Shown piece after piece: positions 4,310-22,369 of a stretch of DNA of 24,000 bases. Under the pieces are notes generated by a model that was not told the origin of the DNA, ran no database searches, and was given only the letters and a program-made list of their open reading frames with translations. Location of the stretch: positions 11,950-35,949 of the forward strand of contig CAJBMK010000052.1 in the NCBI GenBank assembly GCA_903954165.1, read 5' to 3'. Source of the DNA: an uncultured bacterium (GTDB taxonomy: Bacteria; Patescibacteriota; Minisyncoccia; Phycocordibacterales; CAJBMK01). Within the stretch, counting starts at the first letter, position 1. Every line of letters starts with the position of its first letter. A program made the position numbers and the translations under genes.

Positions 4310-4381
4310 CTCCTCGTCGTTCAATGGATAGGACGCAAGATTGCGGATCTTGCAATGTAGGTTCGATTCCTACCGAGGGGA
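4310..4381 (+). tRNA. tRNA-Arg (anticodon GCG), no encoded CCA
   Basis: Hand-folded cloverleaf. Acceptor ctcctcg/cgagggg (one U-G pair). D arm gttc-aatggata-ggac. Anticodon arm caaga-ttGCGga-tcttg. Variable region caat. T arm gtagg-ttcgatt-cctac. Discriminator a at 4381. Confidence 0.85.
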
Positions 4382-4549
4382 CAAAATACAAAAATGACTT
4401 CCATGATTGGAAGTCATTTTTGTATTTTGTCCCCTCGAGCAAGTGCCGGGTGGCACTTGCGGGTAGGAATCGAAGCCCGATTGAGCATTTTATTGAGCGT
4501 CTTCGCGAAAAGAAAATCCAATCGGGGTACTGAACCTGTAAGGTTCGAA
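4382..4549 (+). repeat. tRNA-3'-flank structured element, scaffold type 1, matched to tRNA-Arg(GCG) (copy A1)
   Basis: H1 is a perfect 27-bp hairpin, 4377-4403/4408-4434, extended by cga/tcg. H2 is gcaagtgcc/ggcacttgc at 4439-4447/4452-4460. gtaggaatcgaa (4463-4474) is the reverse complement of the tRNA T-loop and T-stem at 4362-4373. P3 is cccgattg/caatcggg at 4476-4483/4519-4526 and encloses a hairpin tipped gcg-tctt-cgc. The 3' module gtactgaacctgtaaggttcgaa lies at 4527-4549. Confidence 0.7.
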
Positions 4550-4714
4550 TCCCTCAGTGCCCACAACAAAAACGGCTATCGTGCTGTTTTTTTGCGGGCG
4601 CTAGCAAAGCGTCTGCACGCTATGCGCGAGGGATTCGAAAGGGTTCTCCGTTATATCTTAGAAATTCTTATTTCTAAGATATCGGAAACCCGTACTGAAC
4701 CTGTAAGGTTCGAA
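4550..4714 (+). repeat. tRNA-3'-flank structured element, scaffold type 2, matched to tRNA-Val, nested in the tRNA-Arg locus (copy A2)
   Basis: It starts with tccctcagtgcccaca, which is 15/16 identical to the tRNA-Val 3' end at 21041-21056. Anti-Val segments are gggcgct (4596-4602) and gagggattcgaa (4628-4639), split by H2 at 4604-4625. P3 is gggttctccg/cggaaaccc. P4 is the 13-bp hairpin at 4653-4682. It ends with a second copy of gtactgaacctgtaaggttcgaa (4692-4714). The decayed tRNA-Arg tail cttcctaccgac follows at 4715-4726. Confidence 0.7.
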
Positions 4715-4795
4715 CTTCCTACCGACATATTCGGTAATCAATAATGTTATTTTTTTCTCTTCCACCCCTCTGTCAAATTTGTTATTGTTCTCCGT

Positions 4796-5743
4796 ATGTT
4801 AACCAAACGACAAGAAGCCGAGCTGGTCACCGCTGTCCAAGGTAGAGGAGAGATTCCGCTGAAGTTTGCCTATATCGGAGATGGTGCGAAAAATTGGGAT
4901 ACTATTGCAAAAGAGAGAAGTGTAACTTCTGGCGGTATAAACTCAACTGAAGCAAGTCTCTTAAAAAGACGGTTGAATGATTTTGTATCAACGTTGAAAA
5001 GTGATAAGGGGATTAATATTGTCGATATTGGTTGTGGAAACGGCGTGCCCGCTATCCCTGTTTTACAGTATCTATCTGAGAGAGGTATTCCTTTTGCCTA
5101 TGTACCAATGGATATTAGTCAGGAAATGCTTGATTTGGCTATTGTTACTATTAAAACAAGGTTTCCAAATGTGATCTGCAAGCCGTTTCAGATGGATTTT
5201 GAATTAGGACAGTTTTCAGATGTGATGTATGAAATAAAAAAAGATGGTTCGGCTAATCTAATGTTGTTTTTGGGAAGTACGCTTGGAAATCATTCTGATT
5301 TAAGTCGTGTGCTCACTAATTTTCGCGATTCGATGACATCAAAAGATTATTTAATTGTCGGTGTAGAGCTAACCAATCTTGCAAAAATAAACAAGATAAT
5401 TCCACATTACGAAGGGTTGCAGATTAATATGTTTGTTGGTCATACATTGCGATACTTACATATTTCAGAAGGTGTGTTTACGTGTGGAGTATCGTGGAAT
5501 GACAAATTGTCTCAAATTGAAATGAGGGCAAATTTTACAGGCGATATTCGTGCCGAAATTGGAGGAGATTCATTTTTGATTGAAAAAGGTGAGAGCATTC
5601 TTTTGGCTCGATCGATTAAATTTACAGAATATACGGTCACAAAACTTTTCTCTGATGTAGGATTTAGAACTGAATTGCTAACAACTTCAGAAGATAGGGG
5701 ATATATCCTTACAATGGTTCAACCAACAAGGTACAGTATTTAA
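4796..5743 (+). CDS. SAM-dependent methyltransferase of the EgtD-like (histidine N-alpha-methyltransferase, Methyltransf_33) family
   Basis: 315-aa ORF. IVDIGCGNG is SAM motif I. YVPMDISQEML, LFLGSTLGNH, IVGVELTN and WNDKLSQIEMRANF align by eye with the conserved EgtD blocks (YxPxDVS, FLGSTIGN, LGTDL, WNxxxxRIEM). Confidence 0.7.
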   Translation: MLTKRQEAELVTAVQGRGEIPLKFAYIGDGAKNWDTIAKERSVTSGGINSTEASLLKRRLNDFVSTLKSDKGINIVDIGCGNGVPAIPVLQYLSERGIPFAYVPMDISQEMLDLAIVTIKTRFPNVICKPFQMDFELGQFSDVMYEIKKDGSANLMLFLGSTLGNHSDLSRVLTNFRDSMTSKDYLIVGVELTNLAKINKIIPHYEGLQINMFVGHTLRYLHISEGVFTCGVSWNDKLSQIEMRANFTGDIRAEIGGDSFLIEKGESILLARSIKFTEYTVTKLFSDVGFRTELLTTSEDRGYILTMVQPTRYSI

Positions 5744-5750
5744 CACCGAT

Positions 5751-5777
5751 AAAAAACCGCCCCCGTGGCGGTTTTTA
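5751..5777. terminator. Bidirectional rho-independent terminator between convergent genes
   Basis: aaaaaaccgcc-cccgt-ggcggttttt. The GC stem is 5757-5761/5767-5771, with an A-run on one side and a T-run on the other. Confidence 0.6.
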
Positions 5778-6709: not shown

Positions 6710-7126
6710 ATGGAAAACCTACCCATTCCGCCCCAAGAGGCGATTATATATGAAAGCGAAAAATTATATGTCTGTCTGGCGTCGTTTCCTCTGGCGAAAG
6801 GGCATACGGTGGTTGTGTGGAAAGATGTCGTTCGGGATTTGCACTCCTTGGACAAGGTTGATTTTGAATATTTGATGGATATTGTAGATATTGCACGAAA
6901 TGTGCTGATGGAGGTTTATGGTGTTGATAAAGTCTATTTGCTCTACATGGACGAAATAGAGCATATTCATTGGCATTTGGTCCCTCGTTTTGATGAGAAA
7001 GGGTTTAATGTGCTCAGCCATGCTCCAACGAAACTGGACGATTTTAGTTTGGTTGGAAGTTTGAGAAAAATATTTCTACAAAAAAAGACAGATTATGAAA
7101 TAGGCGTAAATTTAAAAAATAGGTAA
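6710..7126 (+). CDS. HIT (histidine triad) family nucleotide hydrolase/transferase
   Basis: 138-aa ORF. The histidine triad reads EHIHWHLVPR (HxHxHxx). The upstream block LAKGHTVVVWK is typical of HIT proteins. Confidence 0.85.
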   Translation: MENLPIPPQEAIIYESEKLYVCLASFPLAKGHTVVVWKDVVRDLHSLDKVDFEYLMDIVDIARNVLMEVYGVDKVYLLYMDEIEHIHWHLVPRFDEKGFNVLSHAPTKLDDFSLVGSLRKIFLQKKTDYEIGVNLKNR

Positions 7127-10850: not shown

Positions 10851-11032
10851 ATATTCACTCTAGCATGGGGGAAGAAAGGGGGGAAGAGAGACAGTATCTG
10901 ACAAATATACGAGAGAATCTTCCTTGTTTGGTCAAATCCTCCGGTGTTATTTCAATGATGTTCGGAACGGTAAATTAATATGTCTTGTGCGACCATAAAA
11001 ATGAACAAGGTCATTAAATAAAGGGTATGAAG

Positions 11033-11521
11033 TTATTGTATATTTCTCGCTAAAAATACAATCAAGAACGGTAAAATTATAATAATAGCCGCAACCCCAA
11101 AATAGTCATACCAGGGCGATCTAAAGAGAGATGTAACATTTTGTAAAAATGTGGCGTAGACTTGAGAAATATAATGTTTATAGGTATAAGCTTTTCTTTT
11201 TCCTAAAAAATATTGTAGAGATGCGATAGTTGGAATTGATAATACACAAAGAAATATCATCGTGACACACGCAAAAAAAGATAGAGAATTTATGCGTCCT
11301 AAAATGACCAGAAGAGAAGAAAAGATTACAAAGACAGAAAGGTGGTAATCCGTCATCTCAGAACGCCAGTTCGAGCTAAACCTCATGAAATTTATTATTC
11401 CATCTACTACAATAGGAATTCTTTTGGTGTAGTCAAATTCAGACCAAGGATTTGCCGCATGCACAATTCCCATTCCCAATAAGGGCAATGATAGAATTAG
11501 ATAAATAGTTATTAGGGTCAT
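11033..11521 (-). CDS. Hypothetical polytopic membrane protein (AT-rich block)
   Basis: 162-aa ORF with about 4 hydrophobic segments. It lies in the AT-rich segment. No family recognised. Confidence 0.5.
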   Translation of the reverse strand: MTLITIYLILSLPLLGMGIVHAANPWSEFDYTKRIPIVVDGIINFMRFSSNWRSEMTDYHLSVFVIFSSLLVILGRINSLSFFACVTMIFLCVLSIPTIASLQYFLGKRKAYTYKHYISQVYATFLQNVTSLFRSPWYDYFGVAAIIIILPFLIVFLARNIQ

Positions 11522-11526
11522 TGCTG

Positions 11527-11697
11527 TTATTTTCTAATGAAAATTAGAATGTCCTCTATTATAAACGGAACCAGACATATGAGGCCAACAATTCTTCCGT
11601 GTTGTTTTGATTCAGGCCAAAGTTTTGATTTGCTCGATGTTTGTAACTGGCCTTTCCACAAAAAGAATATACCGATAATAAATAAAATTATGTCCAT
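11527..11697 (-). CDS. Possible 56-aa membrane peptide (below ORF-track cutoff)
   Basis: The reverse-strand ATG at 11695-11697 gives MDIILFIIGIFFLWKGQLQTSSKSKLWPESKQHGRIVGLICLVPFIIEDILIFIRK, with two hydrophobic segments. The stop lies 5 nt before the start of the 162-aa gene. There is no clear RBS. Confidence 0.3.
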   Translation of the reverse strand: MDIILFIIGIFFLWKGQLQTSSKSKLWPESKQHGRIVGLICLVPFIIEDILIFIRK

Positions 11698-11834
11698 GTG
11701 CGAATTTGTTACATAAACGTCTAATAAGAATCTAGGTTTATGAATTAGTTATATCAAAATTAGACTCTTTAAACAATCTAAAAAACAGTGGGGGGTTCGA
11801 ATTATATACAGAATGGATATCCGACAAATGTATA

Positions 11835-12016
11835 AGGTGCGCCGATTACATCAATAGGTACTTTTTGATTTTATTTTCGTCTGGGAAGACTCAATAAAAT
11901 AGCGAAAAGTCTTTCGAATCTCACGCGCAAGCAATGCGGGCGGATTGCTTGCTCTCATCCGCCTAAAAAATCAGCACGCGTGGAGTGTGTGATTTTTAAT
12001 AGCGGAGAATGTTGGT
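11835..12016 (-). repeat. tRNA-3'-flank structured element, scaffold type 2, Ser-matched, detached from any tRNA (copy S3)
   Basis: Read on the minus strand: attaaaaatcacacactccacgcgtgctgatttttt (H1), ggcggatgaga, H2 gcaagcaat/attgcttgc, gcgtgagattcgaa, P3 actttt/aaaagt, and P4 attttatt/aataaaat tipped gtct-tccc-agac. About 11912-12010 is a near copy of about 14233-14325. The 3' module is degenerate. Confidence 0.6.
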
Positions 12017-12068
12017 TTGGTGTTGAAGTTAGTCAAGAATTGTAAGGCCAATTTGTTTCTTACCTCAT

Positions 12069-14054
12069 TTATTTAAAAATATACTCTCCTTTAAATACTT
12101 CAAACTTCAAAACTTCCTTTTCTTGCATTTCGGTTTCTGCTATTTTTGTTAATTTTATTTTGTACTGTTTGCATATATCTTCTAATAAATCATAATTACC
12201 TAAATCGGTAGAAAATCCAATCAAAATTTCACCATTCTGTTTTAAGTATTTCTTACAATCCTTTAAATATTTTCTTATTGCACGATAACCGGCATCAAAA
12301 AATTGAGCGTCTTCCATTGTTATGTTTGTTCCCGGGTCCATAAAACCAAATGGCATAGCCCAAAAAATCACATCAAATTTTTCTGTTTCCGGTATACCGT
12401 CCAATACATCACCGCTCGTGGCCTTGATTCTATCTTCTACTCCAATTAGCTTTGCGTTGTATAAAGTATTCTCCGGGGCAAATGGATTTATGTCTGTTGC
12501 AAAAATCTCTAAGCCGCTATTTTCTTTTGCAAGATAACAAGAAATAATTCCTGACCCGCATCCAACTTCGCAGAAATATTTCTTATCTTTAATAAGGCCG
12601 TTTACAACTTCTGCATACCACGTTGTTGATGGGAAGTATGATGGATTAAAAACTGCGGGGTGCACAGAATATGTGCTACCAAGAATCGTTGCGTTTACCC
12701 AATCCTCCTTTTTGTTTTGATTTTGGAAGGTTCTTGTTTGTTCTATTCCTGCTTGTATTGGATCATCAAAACGAATTAACTGCGTTAGGTATGTTTTTAT
12801 TTTATCAGTATCAATATCGCCATTTGTTTTTAATTTTGTTTCTGCGTCAATGGAAAAATTAATCTTGAAATATCTTCGTAATTCAAAGTAGTTATTTAAA
12901 TCATCCGGTCCAAATCCCCCAAAAATTGCAATGTCGTTTAGGTCGTATGTTAATAAATTATTTATTTTGCTAATTAAATTTTCTTTGCTTTCCTGAATAC
13001 CTTTTCCTTTGCTATTGTCTAGTAATATAAATGCTTTATTGTCTTTAATTAACGTTCTAAAATTCTCGTCTTCGATTAAATGGATATTTTCATCATCAAG
13101 CGGAATATCCGCCAAAAAGTTCTCAGTAACATACTTTACGAAGCGTAAGTTATCTTCTGTATTAAAATCGTTTGTTTGTAAATACTTTACAAAAGGTAAC
13201 TCATTTTTAATTCTTTCTGTGTCTAGGATTTGATTGTTTGAATAGGTATATGAAAAATGTAAGATAGGAACGAATCCCTCATAAAATTCGCACACCTTAA
13301 AAATATCCTCTACATTTTTAAGTTTTTCTTTATTTTGAAAATCCCTTGAATCAAATTGTACCCCTATACAGATTTTTAATAGGGGATCTTTTTTCTTATT
13401 TTTCAAAAACTCGCCTATTTCTTCGACGGTTTGAGGTTTGTCTGCGTGGAACTGATAGAAATAATAGCTTACTTCTTGGCTGAAAAAATGTTTAAATTTA
13501 GATTTTTTTGTCTCGAAATATTTTTTATTTACATCATTTAATCCCACAATTAAAGACCTTCTTTCAACGATCTCAATTCCAGTCTTTGCAATTTCGGAAA
13601 CTTTCGACGGATTGTTTGTTAAAAGAATTATTTGATTTACACCGAGGTCATTTAAGGCGACTTTGACCATCTCATATGTTCTTTCATCCGGGTTGTGTCC
13701 AAGCATTACGTTTGCCTCAAACGTATCATAACCTTTTGCCTGTAGTTTGTACGCTTTTATTTTTTCATATAGTCCGATACCGCGACCTTCCTGTCTTAAA
13801 TAAATCACACATCCGTTTCCGTTTTTTTGTATTTCAATCAAGGCTGTCTCAAGCTGTTCTCCACAGTCACATTGTAGGCTTTGAAAAACATCTCCCGTCA
13901 TGCATTCACTATGAACTCTGGTTAAAATCGGCTCTTTTGGATTAAGATGCTCGGTATAAACCACAACGGTTTCTTTACCGTGATTTTCCGCATATACGCG
14001 AAAGTTAAATTTTCCTAATTTAGTATTTATAAGTGATTCTGAAAATTTCTTCAT
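12069..14054 (-). CDS. Three-domain fusion: GTP cyclohydrolase II (RibA) + TrpF/PRAI-like TIM-barrel domain + class I SAM-dependent methyltransferase
   Basis: 661-aa ORF. Residues ~1-195 align with RibA along their length: RVHSECMTGDVFQSLQCDCGEQL carries the zinc Cys triad, and RQEGRGIGLYEKIKAYKLQ, GYDTFEAN, DERTY and LLTNNPSKV also match. The middle domain has KICIG, ILLDNSKGKG, IAIFGGFGPDDL and FSIDAETKLKTNGDIDTDKIKTYL. These mirror the PRAI blocks KICG, LLD..GGSG, LSGGL.PENV and VDVSSGVE..G.KD..KI..F. The C-terminus has VGCGSG (motif I), ATDINP, and IFWAMPFG at the position of the NPPY-type motif IV. Confidence 0.8.
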   Translation of the reverse strand: MKKFSESLINTKLGKFNFRVYAENHGKETVVVYTEHLNPKEPILTRVHSECMTGDVFQSLQCDCGEQLETALIEIQKNGNGCVIYLRQEGRGIGLYEKIKAYKLQAKGYDTFEANVMLGHNPDERTYEMVKVALNDLGVNQIILLTNNPSKVSEIAKTGIEIVERRSLIVGLNDVNKKYFETKKSKFKHFFSQEVSYYFYQFHADKPQTVEEIGEFLKNKKKDPLLKICIGVQFDSRDFQNKEKLKNVEDIFKVCEFYEGFVPILHFSYTYSNNQILDTERIKNELPFVKYLQTNDFNTEDNLRFVKYVTENFLADIPLDDENIHLIEDENFRTLIKDNKAFILLDNSKGKGIQESKENLISKINNLLTYDLNDIAIFGGFGPDDLNNYFELRRYFKINFSIDAETKLKTNGDIDTDKIKTYLTQLIRFDDPIQAGIEQTRTFQNQNKKEDWVNATILGSTYSVHPAVFNPSYFPSTTWYAEVVNGLIKDKKYFCEVGCGSGIISCYLAKENSGLEIFATDINPFAPENTLYNAKLIGVEDRIKATSGDVLDGIPETEKFDVIFWAMPFGFMDPGTNITMEDAQFFDAGYRAIRKYLKDCKKYLKQNGEILIGFSTDLGNYDLLEDICKQYKIKLTKIAETEMQEKEVLKFEVFKGEYIFK

Positions 14055-14127
14055 AGAAAATATTATACTATAAATTTATATAACAAGCCTAAAATAGGTA
14101 TAGAATCCTATTTTATAACAGGGTTAA

Positions 14128-14316
14128 TGGTGGAGGAGGTGAGACCGCGAGTACGCTTTTCGAAGCTTACAGCTTCAGTACAGGTTTCCCATTTTTTCAC
14201 GATAGGAATCGCTCAAAAATAGGGGAGAACCTTTTCGAATCTCACGCGCAAGCGAAGCAGTTCGCTTGCTCTCCTCCGTCTAAAAAATCAGCACGCGTAG
14301 GGTGTGCGATTTTAAT
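14128..14316 (-). repeat. tRNA-3'-flank structured element, scaffold type 2, Ser-matched (copy S2)
   Basis: Read on the minus strand: H1 aaaatcgcac...gtgctgatttt, gacggaggaga, H2 gcaagcgaa-ctgc-ttcgcttgc, gcgtgagattcgaa, P3 aaggttctcccc/gggaaacct, P4 attttt/aaaaat, and the module gtactgaagctgtaagcttcgaa. A 14-nt insert follows, then the tail tctcacctcctccacca (plus strand 14128-14144). Confidence 0.7.
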
Positions 14317-14500
14317 TGCGGAGGAGGTGAGACCGCGAGTACGCTTTTCGAACGTTACACGTTCAGTACCCCGATTGGATTTTCTCTGCGTTGGGAAACT
14401 TGAGAAAATGCTCAATCAGGCTTCGAATCTCACCCGGAAGTGCTCCCAGCACTTCCTCTCCTCGCGCCAAATCAAAACCGCCCTGAAAGGCGGTTGGATT
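14317..14500 (-). repeat. tRNA-3'-flank structured element, scaffold type 1, Ser-matched (copy S1)
   Basis: Read on the minus strand directly after the tRNA-Ser CCA: H1 aaccgcc-tttcag-ggcggtt (plus 14476-14495), flanked by ccaaatc/gatttgg. Then ggcgcgaggaga, H2 ggaagtgct/agcacttcc (plus 14436-14456), gggtgagattcgaa, P3 cctgattg/caatcggg, and P4 attttctc/gagaaaat tipped gtt-tccc-aac. The module is gtactgaacgtgtaacgttcgaa. A 14-nt insert follows, then the tail tctcacctcctccgca (plus 14317-14332). Confidence 0.7.
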
Positions 14501-14590
14501 TGGCGGAGGAGGTGAGATTCGAACTCACGACACCTGTAAAGGTGTGACGGTTTTCAAGACCGTTGCTTTAGACCGCTCAGCCACTCCTCC
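14501..14590 (-). tRNA. tRNA-Ser (anticodon UGA), class II with long variable arm, CCA encoded
   Basis: The reverse complement reads ggaggagtggctgagcggtctaaagcaacggtcttgaaaaccgtcacacctttacaggtgtcgtgagttcgaatctcacctcctccgcca. Acceptor ggaggag/ctcctcc. Anticodon arm acggt-ctTGAaa-accgt. Variable arm cacc-tttaca-ggtg. T arm gtgag-ttcgaat-ctcac. Confidence 0.9.
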
Positions 14591-19038: not shown

Positions 19039-19110
19039 GCCCTCATAGCTCAACGGATAGAGCAGCGCTCTTCTAAGGCGTTGATGTAGGTTCGATTCCT
19101 GCTGGGGGCA
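19039..19110 (+). tRNA. tRNA-Arg (anticodon UCU), no encoded CCA
   Basis: Acceptor gccctca/tgggggc. D arm gctc-aacggata-gagc. Anticodon arm gcgct-ctTCTaa-ggcgt. Variable region tgat. T arm gtagg-ttcgatt-cctgc. Discriminator a at 19110. Confidence 0.9.
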
Positions 19111-19280
19111 CAATTAAAAAACCGACGATAAGTCGGTTTTTTAATTGTGCCCCCAGAGAAAGCGCCTGATGGCGCTTTCGCCAGGAATCGAAGCCCGATT
19201 GAGCTTCGTTTTGAGTGTCTTCACGAAAAAACGAACCAATCGGGGTACTGACCGAGTAACGGTCGAACTTCCTGTTGGGT
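19111..19280 (+). repeat. tRNA-3'-flank structured element, scaffold type 1, matched to tRNA-Arg(UCU) (copy B, cleanest prototype)
   Basis: H1 is a perfect 25-bp hairpin at 19102-19126/19132-19156. H2 is gaaagcgcc/ggcgctttc at 19158-19166/19171-19179. caggaatcgaa (19182-19192) is the reverse complement of 19091-19101. P3 is at 19194-19201/19237-19244. P4 is at 19205-19212/19228-19235, tipped gtg-tctt-cac. The module is gtactgaccgagtaacggtcgaa. The decayed tail tcgaacttcctgttgggt lies at 19263-19280. Confidence 0.7.
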
Positions 19281-20980: not shown

Positions 20981-21054
20981 GGGCGCTTAGCTCAGTTGGT
21001 TAGAGCATCTCATTTACACTGAGAGGGTCGGGGGTTCGAATCCCTCAGCGCCCA
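20981..21054 (+). tRNA. tRNA-Val (anticodon UAC), no encoded CCA
   Basis: Acceptor gggcgct/agcgccc. D arm gctc-agttggtta-gagc. Anticodon arm tctca-ttTACac-tgaga. Variable region gggtc. T arm ggggg-ttcgaat-ccctc. Discriminator a at 21054. Confidence 0.9.
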
Positions 21055-21217
21055 CAATAAAAACGGCTATCGTGCCGTTTTTTTGCGGGCGCTAGCAAAG
21101 TGTCTGCACACTTTGCGCGAGGGATTCGAAAGGGTTCTCCGTTATATTTTGGAAATTCCCATTTCCAAAATATCGGAAACCCCTACTGCCGCTGTAAGCG
21201 GAGAATCATTTGTCGGC
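21055..21217 (+). repeat. tRNA-3'-flank structured element, scaffold type 2, matched to tRNA-Val (copy C)
   Basis: H1 is aaaaacggc-tatcgt-gccgttttt (21059-21082). gggcgct (21087-21093) is the reverse complement of the acceptor 3' strand at 21047-21053. H2 is gcaaagtgt-ctgc-acactttgc (21095-21116). gagggattcgaa (21119-21130) is the reverse complement of 21035-21046. P3 is gggttctccg/cggaaaccc. P4 is the 13-bp hairpin at 21144-21173. The module is ctactgccgctgtaagcggagaa. A strongly decayed tail follows. Confidence 0.7.
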
Positions 21218-21670: not shown

Positions 21671-22369
21671 ATGACCACACAAGAACAGCGGCCGAATTGC
21701 ATCGGCTTCATTATGGACGGCAATCGGCGTTGGGCGCGGAAGAATGGCAAGAAAGGAATAGAGGGTCATTCCGAGGGGTATAAGAAATTAAAAGAGATAC
21801 TTAATTGGGCCAAGGAAGCCGGTATTCCCCATGTTATTGTCTATGCTTTTTCCACCGAAAACTGGAAACGAACCGAAGAAGAGGTGGGGGCGCTGATGAA
21901 ACTTCTTACCTTTGCTCTTTCAAGCGAAGTGGATGCGCTTATGCGCCAGGGTGTGCGGCTCAAGTTTGCCGGGGAATTAACTCTCTTTCCTCGGTCATTT
22001 CAAGAAATGATGAAAAAAGCCGAAACGGAAACGGCGGATAACGGTCCGCTTACTCTCACCGTCGCTCTTTCCTATGGGGGACGGGCGGAAATTCTGCAAG
22101 CGGTGAAACGAATCGCACAGTTGCCGAAAGCCGAGCAAGAGGCTCTAACGGAACAATCATTCGAAAACTATCTGTGGACCTCAGGAATGCCCGATCCCGA
22201 CCTTATGGTTCGCACCGGCGGGGAAGTGCGTCTGTCCAATTTTTTGCCGTATCAAATTGTTTACAGCGAACTTTTTTTCACCAAAACTCTGTGGCCTGAT
22301 TTTTCTAAAAATGAATTTGAGGCAATACTTAAAGAATATAGTGAGCGAAAAAGGAATTACGGAAAATAG
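21671..22369 (+). CDS. uppS: Undecaprenyl (isoprenyl) diphosphate synthase, cis-prenyltransferase
   Basis: 232-aa ORF. It has IMDGNRRWA, VYAFSTENWKR and RTGGEVRLSNFLPYQ, and ends with ERKRNYGK. Confidence 0.9.
   Translation: MTTQEQRPNCIGFIMDGNRRWARKNGKKGIEGHSEGYKKLKEILNWAKEAGIPHVIVYAFSTENWKRTEEEVGALMKLLTFALSSEVDALMRQGVRLKFAGELTLFPRSFQEMMKKAETETADNGPLTLTVALSYGGRAEILQAVKRIAQLPKAEQEALTEQSFENYLWTSGMPDPDLMVRTGGEVRLSNFLPYQIVYSELFFTKTLWPDFSKNEFEAILKEYSERKRNYGK

What the first reader, a model, noticed from the sequence alone, without database searches (positions are those of the whole stretch)
11835..14332. AT-rich single-gene cassette bracketed by two Ser-matched type-2 elements
A third Ser-matched type-2 copy, S3 (11835-12016), lies on the far side of the 661-aa gene, in the same orientation as S2. 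Plus strand about 11912-12010 is a near copy of about 14233-14325. Both share tttcgaatctcacgcgcaagc and ctaaaaaatcagcacgcgt, and S3 has only a longer H2 loop and a few substitutions. The layout is S2, 73 nt, gene (14054 to 12069), 52 nt, S3. The enclosed DNA, and the block down to about 11030, is visibly much more AT-rich than the flanks. My hand count gives 14 G+C in the 60 nt at 12061-12120, against 33 in the 60 nt at 22081-22140. S3 has no tRNA next to it, and its upstream sense partner is reduced to ...cattctccgct. It looks like the displaced end of an insertion into the tRNA-Ser locus. On the minus strand a perfect TATAAT (plus 14062-14067) ends 7 nt before the ATG, with no Shine-Dalgarno sequence. 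The gene may therefore be expressed from its own promoter as a near-leaderless mRNA. Together this suggests the elements act as boundaries or recombination sites that capture and carry cargo genes.
Basis: partly seen in the sequence, partly recalled or inferred. Interest (0 to 1): 0.75.

Follow-up and report, generated by a model that had tools for sequence, protein, structure and literature searches.

The report
Foreign gene landed in tRNA-mimic repeats
A low-GC, horizontally acquired gene sits between copies of a previously undescribed, highly structured ~135-nt element that follows tRNA genes throughout the candidate-phyla-radiation bacteria and re-creates the tRNA's 3' end, so these elements look like reusable landing pads where small accessory genes accumulate.

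Summary

S1, S2 and S3 belong to a family with seven copies in the window, one or more after each of the four tRNAs. The family also gave 128 covariance-model hits in 100 Patescibacteria loci. Each copy has four parts:
- an antisense copy of the local tRNA's T-arm and acceptor 3' strand, split by a hairpin;
- TTCGAA, followed by a long covarying hairpin;
- the invariant hairpin UGAANNU-GUA-ANNUUCG;
- a sense copy of the tRNA end, starting exactly at the T-loop TTCGAA.

Nothing in Rfam matches the family, and the searched papers do not describe it.

The 661-aa gene encodes GTP cyclohydrolase II fused to a methyltransferase. Its GC is 0.32 against 0.43 in the flanks, and its closest homologues are 86% identical, against 52% for the host RuvX. 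It is inserted at a CTCC core in the tRNA-end copy regenerated by S2. That insertion displaced a decayed copy, a hairpin and S3.

Similar arrays of cargo between elements occur in other CPR genomes. No recombinase was found, so the insertion mechanism is inferred. The leaderless look of the gene is genome-wide, not special to the cassette.

The parts
14501..14590 (-). tRNA-Ser(UGA), the anchor of the array; CCA is encoded
   Evidence: ARAGORN; Rfam tRNA, 62 bits
14467..14500 (-). Trailer with a terminator-like hairpin whose stem continues into the tRNA acceptor 3' strand and the antisense arm of S1
   Evidence: Terminator scan, 14495-14476 minus; sequence
14317..14466 (-). S1 (type-1 core GCCYGATTGAGC...CCAATCGGGG). 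Order of parts: antisense acceptor strand, H2 hairpin, antisense T-stem, TTCGAA, H3, GUAC, H4, small hairpin H5, then the sense arm tctcacctcctccgc
   Evidence: Covariance-model hit, 111 bits (S1 was in the training set); RNA fold -62.8 kcal/mol, z -4.9
14281..14316 (.). Hairpin flanked by A- and T-runs between S1 and S2. It is homologous to the hairpin before S3. Its G-T wobble lies on the plus strand.
   Evidence: plus 14291-14307; alignment
14128..14280 (-). S2 (type-2 core GGTTCTCC...GGGAAACC). Its sense arm tctcacctcctccacca (14144->14128) is the regenerated tRNA-like 3' end and the left junction of the cargo.
   Evidence: Covariance-model hit, 103 bits (S2 was in the training set); fold -64.5 kcal/mol, z -7.7; arm scan, 1 mismatch to the tRNA end
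12015..14127 (-). Cargo segment of 2,113 bp, GC 0.324. The ORF 12069-14054 encodes 661 aa: an N-terminal RibA-type GTP cyclohydrolase II, an unassigned middle region of about 270 aa, and a C-terminal HemK/MTS-like class I methyltransferase. TATAAT lies at 14067->14062.
   Evidence: DNA homology to relatives is confined to 14072..12073. Homologues are 86% identical, against 52% for the host RuvX.
12001..12014 (-). Displaced, decayed copy of the tRNA-Ser 3' end (caacattctccgct) and right junction of the cargo. The shared core CTCC lies at 12007->12004.
   Evidence: Sequence; alignment to the S1-arm/S2 junction
11964..12000 (.). Hairpin homologous to 14281-14316
   Evidence: plus 11974-11991
11808..11963 (-). 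S3, a degenerate and chimeric member. Its 5' half (antisense arm, H2, T-stem, TTCGAA) is Ser-matched and about 85% identical to S2. Its H3 differs from S2's but still has paired stems. Its tail, CATTTGTCGGATATCC, resembles the tail of the Val element at 21208.
   Evidence: Covariance-model hit 11957-11823, 42 bits, E = 4.5e-9 (S3 was not in the training set)
10881..11807 (-). Second AT-rich, strain-variable module (162-aa ORF 11033-11521, no family hit). It begins at a TTCGAA (11801->11796). In another strain it is replaced by a 2.56-kb module that encodes a 771-aa ABC transporter.
   Evidence: GC 0.336
4430..4729 (+). Two more family members downstream of tRNA-Arg(GCG): a type-1 copy (4430-4564) and, nested at its right-hand TTCGAA, a copy of the tRNA-Val 3' end plus trailer plus type-2 element (4542-4707, 90% identical to 21033-21198)
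   Evidence: D1; 109 and 97 bits
19148..19282 (+). Type-1 member downstream of tRNA-Arg(TCT)
   Evidence: 83 bits
21086..21220 (+). Type-2 member downstream of tRNA-Val(TAC)
   Evidence: 74 bits

Best explanation
S1, S2 and S3 are copies of a Patescibacteria-wide, non-coding, strongly structured module of about 135 nt that sits inside the 3' part of tRNA genes.

How the module is built and placed. Each module lies just after the T-loop sequence TTCGAA. At its left end it carries a replacement T-stem and acceptor 3' strand, so the tRNA stays intact. After a trailer hairpin it carries an antisense copy of that same tRNA end. Then come two conserved hairpins, H3 and H4. The original tRNA end is left as a direct repeat at the module's right end. 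Every insertion therefore creates one more copy of the tRNA 3' end, that is, one more attachment site, and arrays grow (tRNA-S1-S2-...-S3).

How the gene got there. The 661-aa gene is a horizontally acquired single-gene cargo. It entered the copy of the tRNA-Ser end that followed S2. The crossover was at the last bases of the acceptor strand (core CTCC). This pushed the old copy, its hairpin and S3 2.1 kb downstream.

Shown here: the family, its structure and covariation, its strict association and co-orientation with tRNAs, the sharp TTCGAA boundary, the foreign composition and phylogenetic discordance of the gene, the junction sequences, and equivalent arrays elsewhere.

Inferred: that the modules are, or were, mobile insertions. 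Also inferred is how the cargo entered. One route is site-specific recombination by a trans-encoded enzyme that recognises the tRNA-end mimic. The other is homology- or microhomology-assisted recombination after DNA uptake, using the conserved modules as anchors.
For: Family and structure.
- The window holds 7 hits on the tRNA-sense strand, covering all 4 tRNAs.
- The H4 motif occurs in more than 119 genome loci, nearly all Patescibacteria, against about 17 expected from my own arithmetic.
- The covariance model gives 128 hits in 100 loci.
- In those hits 95.5% of cells are paired, with 419 double-change cells against 122 in shuffles (0/500 shuffles reach this). Slid controls are below 50% paired.
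- An invariant U.G pair at the base of H4 (120/128) and more stable sense-strand folds (H3: 56/68, p = 5e-8) indicate that the tRNA-sense single strand is the functional one.

tRNA linkage.
- 81 of 128 motifs have a same-strand tRNA within 330 nt upstream, and none has an opposite-strand tRNA nearby.
- 83 of 134 tRNAs have an antisense T-arm within 200 nt downstream, against 4 of 134 upstream.
- The sense arm is an exact copy of the tRNA end in most loci.
- The t5/t3 complement gives 4.69 of 6 Watson-Crick pairs, against 3.59 +/- 0.12 with shuffled partners.

Evidence that the modules are insertions.
- The left edge of the direct repeat is always TTCGAA. Its right edge is most often the tRNA end and sometimes runs 30 nt further into the trailer.
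- In L066, L113 and L114 the distal arm keeps GCCA plus the flank GTGCTAGCACGAG. In L038 that same flank directly follows the intact tRNA-Ser.
- A Val unit is nested inside the Arg element.

Evidence that the gene is foreign cargo.
- GC is 0.324 and GC3 is 0.29.
- Homologues reach 86% identity, against 52% for RuvX.
- Homologues sit in different contexts, two of them next to a tRNA or an element, and always at GC 0.33 against 0.42-0.44 in their flanks.
- The block 14161-11805 is 99.9% identical in sample SRR26784071, where the ruvX side is 98.0% identical.

Analogous arrays: L022, L038, L067 and L110, L085 and L083.

General principle: islands that integrate into tRNA genes restore the gene and leave a displaced fragment (PMC4383910).
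Against: - No integrase, transposase or HUH enzyme was found in the window, in any cargo, or enriched near elements.
- No strain lacking the cassette and no empty site was recovered, so insertion is inferred from anatomy.
- The displaced arm matches the tRNA end at only about 9-10 of 13-15 positions, and the shared core is only 4 nt. That also fits illegitimate recombination.
- Hairpin covariation is unusual for ordinary double-stranded att sites. It would fit equally well a functional RNA whose link to cargo is incidental.
- How the same cores acquire arms matched to more than 14 different tRNA species is not explained. Exchange at the two TTCGAA sites is suggested only by the chimeric S3 and the nested Val unit.
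- That L003 and L150 come from one genome is assumed, not shown.
Confidence: 0.6

Rival explanations
1. The elements are primarily functional RNAs. They would be tRNA-like molecules, or 3'-trailer modules, read through from the tRNA promoter. Each would fold into an acceptor/T-stem mimic of the neighbouring tRNA that carries H2, H3, H4 and sometimes H5. They would act in tRNA processing or regulation, or as decoys. On this view the cargo gene simply landed in a tRNA-rich hotspot, and the elements have no role in gene capture.
For: - Strong covariation, and G.U pairs specific to the tRNA-sense strand.
- Very stable folds in which a5/a3 and t5/t3 close a multi-helix junction (S1 z -4.9, S2 z -7.7).
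- Conserved loop motifs: the GUA triloop and the H2 loops CUNC or UGGGA.
- The arms stay identical to the local tRNA, which suggests selection for matching.
- The elements are present after most tRNAs, including all 4 in the window.
Against: - Most copies lie directly behind an intrinsic-terminator-like hairpin with no room for their own promoter.
- The family has no Rfam counterpart.
- Tandem, nested, chimeric and decayed copies, and direct repeats that extend into trailers, are features of DNA insertion or duplication rather than of a single-copy RNA gene.
- Cargo junctions repeatedly coincide with the arms.
Confidence: 0.25
2. An integron-like or composite cassette. The unit that moves would be the gene together with a flanking element: end of S2, gene, arm remnant, hairpin, S3. 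Excision and integration would occur by recombination between the 113-nt direct repeats, or between folded single-stranded elements that work like attC sites.
For: - The block 14161-11805, which includes all of S3, is 99.9% identical in a strain whose flank is 98% identical on one side and about 81% over 84 nt on the other. Its right end is sharp, at 11805/11807.
- Arrays that alternate single genes with elements occur in L083 and L085.
- The elements are imperfect palindromes with strand-specific features, as attC sites are.
Against: - No IntI-like or other recombinase was found.
- Homology with the 79%-identical cassettes in L155, L156 and L158 ends at the ORF.
- The element next to the L156 homologue is inverted, marginal (22 bits) and not significantly similar to S3.
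- Cargo orientation is mixed in L083 and L085, whereas integron cassettes share one orientation.
- The element motifs (TTCGAA, GUAC) do not fit the attC R-box GTTRRRY (the consensus is recalled from my own knowledge).
Confidence: 0.2
3. Nothing was inserted. The gene would be native, S2 and S3 would arise from a local tandem duplication, and the low GC would reflect the gene's own constraints.
For: The gene family has low GC (0.33) in every genome examined, so composition alone is weak evidence for recent transfer.
Against: - Homologues reach 86% identity, against 52% for the host RuvX.
- The genomic context differs in each genome.
- The decayed tRNA-end copy lies exactly at the far junction.
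- The neighbouring slot is strain-variable.
- Divergence is about 20-fold lower in the cassette than in the flank.
Confidence: 0.05

Closest known systems
Genomic islands and prophages integrated into tRNA/tmRNA genes by tyrosine integrases (Islander definition, PMC4383910)
   Same: The target is the 3' part of a tRNA gene. The incoming DNA restores the gene, and a displaced 3' fragment marks the far end. Crossovers occur in the T-loop or at the extreme 3' end. Tandem accretion and foreign base composition are seen.
   Different: No integrase is present in any cargo examined. The units are 0.13-3.5 kb. The recurrent 135-nt module has covarying hairpins and an antisense copy of the tRNA end, which ordinary att sites lack. 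In the window the target is a pseudo-tRNA end made by a previous module, not the tRNA itself.
Non-autonomous integrative elements (CIMEs, cis-mobilizable elements, and MITE-like derivatives); from my own knowledge, not tested
   Same: They lack an integrase, are flanked by att sites, accrete in tandem at a tRNA 3' end, and are presumed to be mobilised in trans.
   Different: CIMEs are kilobase-sized deletion derivatives of a known ICE in the same species. Here no parent element is known, the module is conserved in structure across phylum-level lineages, and its arms are re-matched to more than 14 tRNA species.
Integron gene cassettes with attC sites
   Same: Arrays of mostly single accessory genes are separated by structured imperfect palindromes of 60-140 nt whose structure is more conserved than their sequence. 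Strand-specific features suggest a folded single strand.
   Different: No intI, attI or Pc is present. The motifs differ (TTCGAA and GUAC rather than the R-box GTTRRRY). Cargo orientation is mixed. The sites copy the neighbouring tRNA.
IS200/IS605-type elements and their non-autonomous PATE/REP derivatives (HUH transposition of single-stranded DNA)
   Same: They are rich in hairpins and have no classical inverted ends. They insert next to a short specific sequence in one orientation, have a hairpin a few nt from the right end, and exist as non-coding derivatives.
   Different: No TnpA or TnpB was found. The element carries a functional replacement for part of its target gene. Its target, TTCGAA, is palindromic.
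tRNA-like RNA domains (tmRNA tRNA-like domain, bacterial Y RNA YrlA, viral tRNA-like structures)
   Same: The predicted fold closes with an acceptor-like stem and a T-stem-like helix identical to those of a real tRNA.
   Different: There is no Rfam match. The T-loop is replaced by a 3-4-way junction. The mimic copies whichever tRNA lies upstream. Copies are tandem, nested and decayed.

Membership tests
tRNA-integrated genomic island (Islander-type) | Integration into the 3' part of a tRNA gene, with the target end regenerated | tested here: met
   The left junction is an intact copy of the tRNA-Ser end, tctcacctcctcc+acca, with 1 mismatch to the tRNA. The copy belongs to S2, not to the tRNA itself.
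tRNA-integrated genomic island (Islander-type) | A displaced tRNA 3' fragment as a direct repeat at the far end | tested here: met
   caacattctccgct at 12014->12001. CTCCGC is exact, and about 9-10 of 13-15 positions match further upstream. It is followed by the same hairpin and element 5' half as at the S1/S2 junction.
tRNA-integrated genomic island (Islander-type) | An integrase gene encoded in the island | tested here: not met
   The only ORF is the GTP cyclohydrolase II-methyltransferase fusion. No recombinase family was found in any window ORF scanned or in the cargo of L022, L038, L067, L083, L085 and L110.
tRNA-integrated genomic island (Islander-type) | Foreign composition or phylogenetic discordance | tested here: met
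   GC 0.324 against 0.43 and GC3 0.29. Homologues are 86% identical, against 52% for RuvX.
Integron cassette array | An intI integrase with adjacent attI and Pc | tested here: not met
   No integrase family was found among the window ORFs. The anchor is a tRNA gene.
Integron cassette array | attC sites: imperfect palindromes with R''/R' boxes (GTTRRRY) and conserved structure | tested here: inconclusive
   A conserved palindromic structure with covariation is present. The invariant motifs are TTCGAA, GUAC and UGAA..UUCG, which do not fit the R-box consensus. That consensus is recalled from my own knowledge.
Integron cassette array | Cassettes co-oriented and mostly promoterless | tested here: not met
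   Cargo is co-oriented with the elements in the window but opposite or mixed in L085 and L083.
Any described RNA family (Rfam 15) | Reaches a family's gathering score, or at least a credible E-value | tested here: not met
   An E-value-mode cmscan of the whole window gave only the 4 tRNAs above threshold. sX4 (33.9 bits against a gathering score of 70) and PhrS (19.7 against 37) overlap the elements but fall far below.
IS200/IS605 family or PATE | A TnpA (HUH Y1) or TnpB gene in the element or the genome | tested here: not met
   Neither gene is among the window ORFs or the largest ORF clusters near elements, which are PilM, RuvX and other syntenic genes. The rest of the genome could not be examined.
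IS200/IS605 family or PATE | Insertion 3' of a fixed short target in one orientation, with subterminal hairpins and no terminal inverted repeats | tested here: inconclusive
   The left boundary is always TTCGAA. The orientation is always that of the tRNA. The H4 hairpin ends 2 nt before the right junction. However, selection for an intact tRNA would also enforce the orientation.
The new tRNA-end-matched element family (model R1) - membership of S3 | A significant match to a covariance model built without S3, on the tRNA-sense strand, with an antisense arm matched to tRNA-Ser | tested here: met
   42.1 bits, E = 4.5e-9. The arm ggcggatgaga...gcgtgagattcgaa is about 85% identical to that of S2. 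The H4 hairpin and the sense arm are degenerate.

The most novel reading that the evidence does not exclude
The S elements would be a new class of protein-less mobile module, specific to Patescibacteria. Each would fold as a single strand (ssDNA or RNA) into a mimic of the acceptor/T-arm half of the very tRNA gene it occupies. It would insert at the T-loop TTCGAA while supplying a replacement 3' end, so every insertion adds a fresh attachment site. Repeated insertions would build tRNA-anchored arrays that capture single accessory and defence genes. That would be a gene-capture platform analogous to an integron but based on tRNA mimicry, driven by an enzyme that has not yet been identified.
Probability: 0.3. 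Interest if true: 0.9.

Novelty: new variant of a known kind. Interest (0 to 1): 0.72.

Why it matters
Patescibacteria have tiny genomes, few recognisable mobile elements and no known integron-like systems. How they acquire accessory and defence genes is therefore an open question.

This locus, together with more than 100 related loci, points to a conserved and previously unannotated structured module after a large share of their tRNA genes: 62% of tRNAs in the sampled loci carry its antisense T-arm. The module duplicates the tRNA 3' end, and small foreign genes accumulate beside it. Examples are a GTP cyclohydrolase II-methyltransferase fusion, a Shedu-type nuclease, Schlafen/HATPase proteins, an HD-domain protein and a P-loop kinase.

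If the modules are mobile, they define a new route of gene flow and a new kind of target mimicry. If they are RNAs, they are one of the most widespread unannotated structured RNAs in this superphylum.

In either case they explain frequent contig breaks next to tRNAs in CPR assemblies, and they provide a precise marker for delimiting islets.

Tried and rejected
- Rfam, E-value mode, on the whole window: only tRNAs were found.
- Six full-text literature searches (CPR tRNA-linked RNAs, minihelix mimics, tRNA islands in Patescibacteria): nothing describes the element.
- Synteny through RuvX. The metagenome scan returned only relatives at 30-42% identity on short contigs. The protein search showed that the nearest RuvX is 52% identical. 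No closely related species was therefore available for a presence/absence test.
- All contigs that carry the exact RuvX also carry the cassette, or break at the elements.
- Viral collection, three patterns: 0 to 10 hits, none confirmed by the covariance model and none with a matched tRNA arm. A phage attP origin is therefore unsupported.
- Clustering of 878 ORFs around elements, looking for an associated enzyme: only syntenic housekeeping clusters such as PilM and RuvX.
- Search for 'empty' minihelix sites (antisense arm, T-loop, sense arm, no core): none found.
- Homology between S3 and the inverted weak element beside the L156 homologue: not above shuffles.
- A full sigma-70 promoter for the 661-aa gene: not called.
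- PADLOC: only a hit of the methyltransferase domain to mad2.
- Ideas considered and dropped. A hammerhead or other ribozyme has no Rfam hit and the core motifs do not fit. A retroviral-type primer-binding-site origin does not fit, because the antisense arm is interrupted by H2 and the CCA-bearing arms have native genomic flanks. TIGR, bridge-RNA and omega-RNA guides are unsupported: no associated protein was found, and the guide logic would self-target the intact tRNA.
- The last 45 nt of L003 match the S2 core. I treat this as a de Bruijn mis-join, not as biology.

Full report
**1. Context**

The window is a piece of a Patescibacteria (CPR) chromosome. It encodes RuvA, RuvX, a Mur ligase, S20, PilM/PilN and an ABC transporter. 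Relatives of its RuvX are annotated as Paceibacterota.

It carries four tRNA genes:
- Arg-GCG, 4310-4382 (+)
- Ser-UGA, 14501-14590 (-)
- Arg-TCT, 19039-19111 (+)
- Val-TAC, 20981-21055 (+)

**2.

S3 is real and repeats part of S2.
- Plus 11912-11949 matches 14233-14270 at 82%.
- Plus 11940-11996 matches 14257-14313 at 86%.
- The 19-mer TTCGAATCTCACGCGCAAG is exact in both.
- A local alignment extends the repeat to about 113 nt at about 85% identity: minus 14324->14212 against 12008->11890.

The remaining details also check out.
- The 661-aa ORF is 12069-14054 on the minus strand.
- The spacers are 73 and 52 nt.
- TATAAT lies at 14067->14062, followed by 7 nt and then ATG.
- The two hand counts of G+C (14 and 33 per 60 nt) are exact.

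The compositional break is real.
- GC is 0.324 for 12015-14127 and 0.336 for 10870-11807, against 0.427 and 0.429 for the flanks.
- GC3 is 0.29-0.30, against 0.39-0.49 for most other genes.

**3. What the "type-2 element" is**

Read in the direction of the tRNA, each tRNA in the window is followed by these parts in order:
1. a trailer hairpin whose stem runs into the acceptor 3' strand;
2. a5, an antisense copy of the acceptor 3' strand;
3. a hairpin, H2;
4. t5, an antisense copy of the T-stem 3' strand, followed by TTCGAA;
5. a long hairpin, H3, which has two sequence types in the window;
6. GUAC;
7. a 7-bp hairpin, H4 (UGAANNU-GUA-ANNUUCG), followed by AA;
8. in some copies a 14-nt hairpin, H5;
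9. a sense copy of the tRNA's T-stem 3' strand and acceptor 3' strand.

These parts were read.

A covariance model built from 29 copies finds exactly seven members in the window, all on the tRNA-sense strand:

| Copy | Bits |
|---|---|
| S1 | 111 |
| Arg-GCG type 1 | 109 |
| S2 | 103 |
| Val-matched copy at the Arg locus | 97 |
| Arg-TCT | 83 |
| Val | 74 |
| S3 | 42 (E = 4.5e-9) |

Five of these were in the training set. S3 and the Val-locus copy were not.

S1 and S2 fold into a closed multi-helix structure at -62.8 and -64.5 kcal/mol (z -4.9 and -7.7). S3 lacks the 3' arm and does not fold significantly (z -1.7).

**4. The family is CPR-wide and apparently undescribed**

From the collection size I expect about 17 by chance (my arithmetic). 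Almost all hits are Saccharibacteria, Paceibacterota, Taylor-, Kaiser- or Nomurabacteria and similar groups.
- The model gives 128 hits at E <= 1e-3 in 100 of these loci.
- In that alignment 95.5% of cells are paired. There are 419 double-change cells against 122 +/- 10 in shuffles, and 0 of 500 shuffles reach the observed value. Sliding the partners drops pairing below 50%.
- The alignment was fitted to the model, which inflates pairing somewhat. An independent MAFFT/RNAalifold run gave the same helices, with 11 of 15 pairs showing compensatory changes.
- Rfam has no counterpart.
- Six literature searches found no description.

**5. Linkage to tRNAs**

- Of 128 motif instances, 81 have a tRNA within 330 nt upstream on the same strand. 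None has an opposite-strand tRNA nearby.
- 83 of 134 tRNAs in these loci have an antisense copy of their own T-loop and T-stem (at most 2 mismatches in 11) within 200 nt downstream. Only 4 of 134 have one upstream.
- The loci were selected for having at least one element, so the 62% figure is biased upward.
- At least 14 tRNA species are involved, and Ser and Tyr are over-represented.
- The sense arm is an exact copy of the local tRNA end in most cases.
- t5 pairs with the sense arm better than with shuffled partners: 4.69 against 3.59 +/- 0.12 of 6.

**6. Which strand**

- The tRNA-sense strand folds better than its complement. For H3 this holds in 56 of 68 copies (p = 5e-8), and there are 212 G.U pairs against 125 overall.
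- The base pair of H4 is U.G in 120 of 128 copies. On the other strand this would be a C.A mismatch.
- The functional single strand is therefore the tRNA-sense one.
- These data cannot tell RNA from single-stranded DNA.
- One counter-example exists. The hairpin between S1 and S2, and its copy before S3, has its G-T wobble on the plus strand.

**7. Evidence that the elements are insertions in the T-loop**

- (a) The direct repeat between the tRNA and the sense arm always begins at TTCGAA. Its right end most often coincides with the tRNA end. In several loci it runs 22-30 nt further into the trailer.
- (b) In L066, L113 and L114 the distal arm carries GCCA followed by the motif GTGCTAGCACGAG. 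In L038 the same motif directly follows an intact tRNA-Ser. The proximal tRNA end in those three loci lacks CCA. The distal copy is therefore the original end, and the element brought the replacement.
- (c) At the tRNA-Arg(GCG) locus the segment 4542-4707 is 90% identical to 21033-21198. That segment comprises the last 23 nt of tRNA-Val, its trailer and the Val-matched element. It sits exactly between the TTCGAA of a type-1 element and a decayed Arg arm.
- (d) Tandem copies are common, for example in L061, L100, L103, L123 and L050.
- (e) S3 is chimeric. Its 5' half up to TTCGAA is homologous to S2, while its H3 and tail are not. Its tail, CATTTGTCGG, recurs after the Val element. This suggests exchange at TTCGAA.

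No recombinase or transposase was found. None is in the window. None is in any cargo. None is among the recurrent ORF clusters near elements, which are only syntenic genes such as PilM and RuvX. Three pattern scans of the viral collection gave only chance matches.

**8. The cassette**

*The protein.* It has three regions:
- a RibA-type GTP cyclohydrolase II at the N-terminus (TIGR00505, 228 bits, cut-off 206);
- an unassigned stretch of about 270 aa;
- a HemK/MTS-type methyltransferase at the C-terminus.

PADLOC matches only the methyltransferase domain.

*Phylogenetic discordance.* Full-length homologues are abundant. The closest reach 86, 86, 85 and 83% identity. The closest relative of the neighbouring RuvX is only 52% identical.

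*Contexts of the homologues*:
- downstream of tRNA-His in L156 and L157;
- downstream of a degenerate element in L155;
- between FKBP and NusA genes in L158.

Their GC is 0.33 each time, against 0.42-0.44 around them. DNA similarity to the window copy (71-79%) covers only 14072..12073, that is, the ORF and about 18 nt of leader.

*Junctions.* On the left, the S2 sense arm tctcacctcctcc is intact and continues as acca|ttaaccc (14144->14128). On the right, the sequence caacatt|ctccgct (12014->12001) is followed by the same hairpin and element 5' half that follow the S1 arm. The two junctions share only CTCC. This is the pattern expected if DNA entered the extreme 3' end of a tRNA-like site and displaced the old end.

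*Analogous arrangements elsewhere.*

| Locus | Arrangement |
|---|---|
| L038 | tRNA-Ser, DUF6671 gene, arm, trailer, element, arm |
| L067 | tRNA-Ser, Shedu SduA and an ankyrin protein, arm, trailer, element, arm |
| L110 | tRNA-Ser, HIT protein, then two elements |
| L022 | tRNA-Tyr, helicase and a second ORF, then an element |
| L085 | five Tyr-matched elements interleaved with Schlafen/HATPase, HD and unknown genes |
| L083 | Ser-matched E1, TrmB-like gene and a further ORF, arm remnant, hairpin, E2, P-loop gene at GC 0.27, E3 |

About 20 further elements with tRNA-like arms have no tRNA in their 8-kb locus.

**9. Strain comparison**

Independent assemblies from at least seven samples reproduce the arrangement at 99.9-100% identity. 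Assembly error is therefore excluded.

In sample SRR26784071 the picture differs.
- The contig on the ruvX side (L150) is 98.0% identical to the window, with 116 mismatches in 6.5 kb.
- The contig with the end of S2, the cassette and S3 (L003) is 99.9% identical, with 2 mismatches in 2,357 bp.

L003 then diverges sharply after window position 11805/11807. It carries a 2.56-kb module encoding a 771-aa ABC transporter in place of the window's 927-bp module with the 162-aa ORF. It rejoins the window at 10880 at about 81% identity over 84 nt.

If L003 and L150 come from one genome, which is an assumption, then the block from S2's end to S3 was exchanged recently between lineages. In that case the position after S3 is a second variable slot. 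Both alternative modules end in ...CAG(G)ATACT(G/T)T, which resembles the S3 tail.

**10. Expression claim**

The TATAAT and the missing Shine-Dalgarno sequence are real but not distinctive. About 19 of 24 genes in the window lack an SD-like motif. ruvX and three other genes (starts at 6710, 15121 and 15590) have a -10-like hexamer at the same distance from the start codon. The promoter scan found no full -35/-10 pair for the gene. The L155 homologue keeps TATACT at the equivalent place, so a short-leader promoter may belong to the gene.

**11. Interpretation**

The best-supported reading is that the S elements are non-coding modules that were inserted at the T-loop, replace the tRNA end, and multiply the tRNA-end attachment site. 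The 661-aa gene is foreign cargo that used one of those sites.

It remains open whether the modules are still mobile, what enzyme or nucleic-acid form moves them, and whether they also act as RNAs.

Two observations are unexplained. The first is how the same cores come to carry arms matched to many different tRNAs. The second is why a perfect antisense copy of the tRNA end is maintained; at tRNA-Arg(GCG) it forms a 30-nt perfect palindrome, 4374-4437.

Noticed in passing
window 4374-4437: A perfect 30-nt inverted repeat (4-nt loop) comprises the last 9 nt of tRNA-Arg(GCG), its trailer and the start of the downstream element. A 25-nt perfect equivalent lies at 19102-19156 after tRNA-Arg(TCT). 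In a read-through transcript these palindromes would compete with the tRNA acceptor stem.
   Followed up: partly
window 4542-4707 and 21033-21198: A unit made of the tRNA-Val 3' end, its trailer and a Val-matched element is present twice, 16.5 kb apart, at 90% identity. The second copy is nested at the right-hand TTCGAA of the Arg-matched element. This looks like a transposition or recombination event within the genome.
   Followed up: partly
window 4796-5776: The 315-aa EgtD-like (Methyltransf_33) gene starts about 70 nt after the Arg-locus elements. It has low GC3 (0.30) like the 661-aa cargo. It is followed by a terminator (5750-5776) of the same family as the tRNA trailers at 19115 and 21057. 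It may be a second cargo gene next to elements.
   Followed up: no
window 10881-11807; L003 2358-4917: A second AT-rich slot lies directly after S3 and holds different modules in two strains: a 162-aa predicted membrane ORF with no family hit, or a 771-aa ABC transporter. Both modules end with a short motif that resembles the S3 tail (ATTTGTCRGATA..CTGT). That motif also occurs after the Val element at 21208.
   Followed up: partly
window, 24 gene starts: Only about 5 of 24 genes have an SD-like motif. Several have a TATAAT-like hexamer ending about 7 nt before the start codon. Leaderless or SD-independent initiation may be the rule in this organism.
   Followed up: partly
L085 (contig JBLHQB010000018.1, labelled Patiriisocius sp., Flavobacteriaceae): An 8-kb stretch holds five element copies and no tRNA. 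It lies on a contig binned to Bacteroidota. Either a CPR contig was mis-binned or the family has spread outside Patescibacteria.
   Followed up: no
L015 ~6930, L056 ~2502, L119 ~4978, L124 ~5427: Intact T-arm and acceptor 3' ends of tRNA-Asn type were not called as tRNAs by ARAGORN. Each is preceded by ...GTGTAACG(A/C)(G/A)TTGGTC. They may be intron-containing or disrupted tRNA-Asn genes. In L015 one lies about 3.6 kb upstream of an orphan element with Asn-matched arms.
   Followed up: no
L003 4989-5033: The last 45 nt of this Logan contig switch from the start of the ABC ATPase gene to an S2-like core, across a shared AAAAGTTCTC k-mer. This is probably an assembly mis-join. Contigs of this species often break at the elements (L150 and L155 start inside one).
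   Followed up: partly
661-aa protein family (P0058-P0177): The fusion of GTP cyclohydrolase II, an unknown domain and a methyltransferase is widespread. At least 120 full-length clusters at 52% identity or more were listed, in Patescibacteria, Chlamydiota, Bacteroidota and others. In the four homologue loci examined it is AT-rich relative to its flanks. Its function is unknown, and its middle region of about 270 aa has no Pfam match.
   Followed up: partly
H2 hairpins across loci: H2 comes in two loop classes with covarying stems: AA-CUNC-UU and UGGGA/UGGGGA. Orthologous elements (L054, L065 and L072, all tRNA-Tyr) carry unrelated H2 sequences in otherwise conserved surroundings, as if H2 were swapped as a module.
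   Followed up: no
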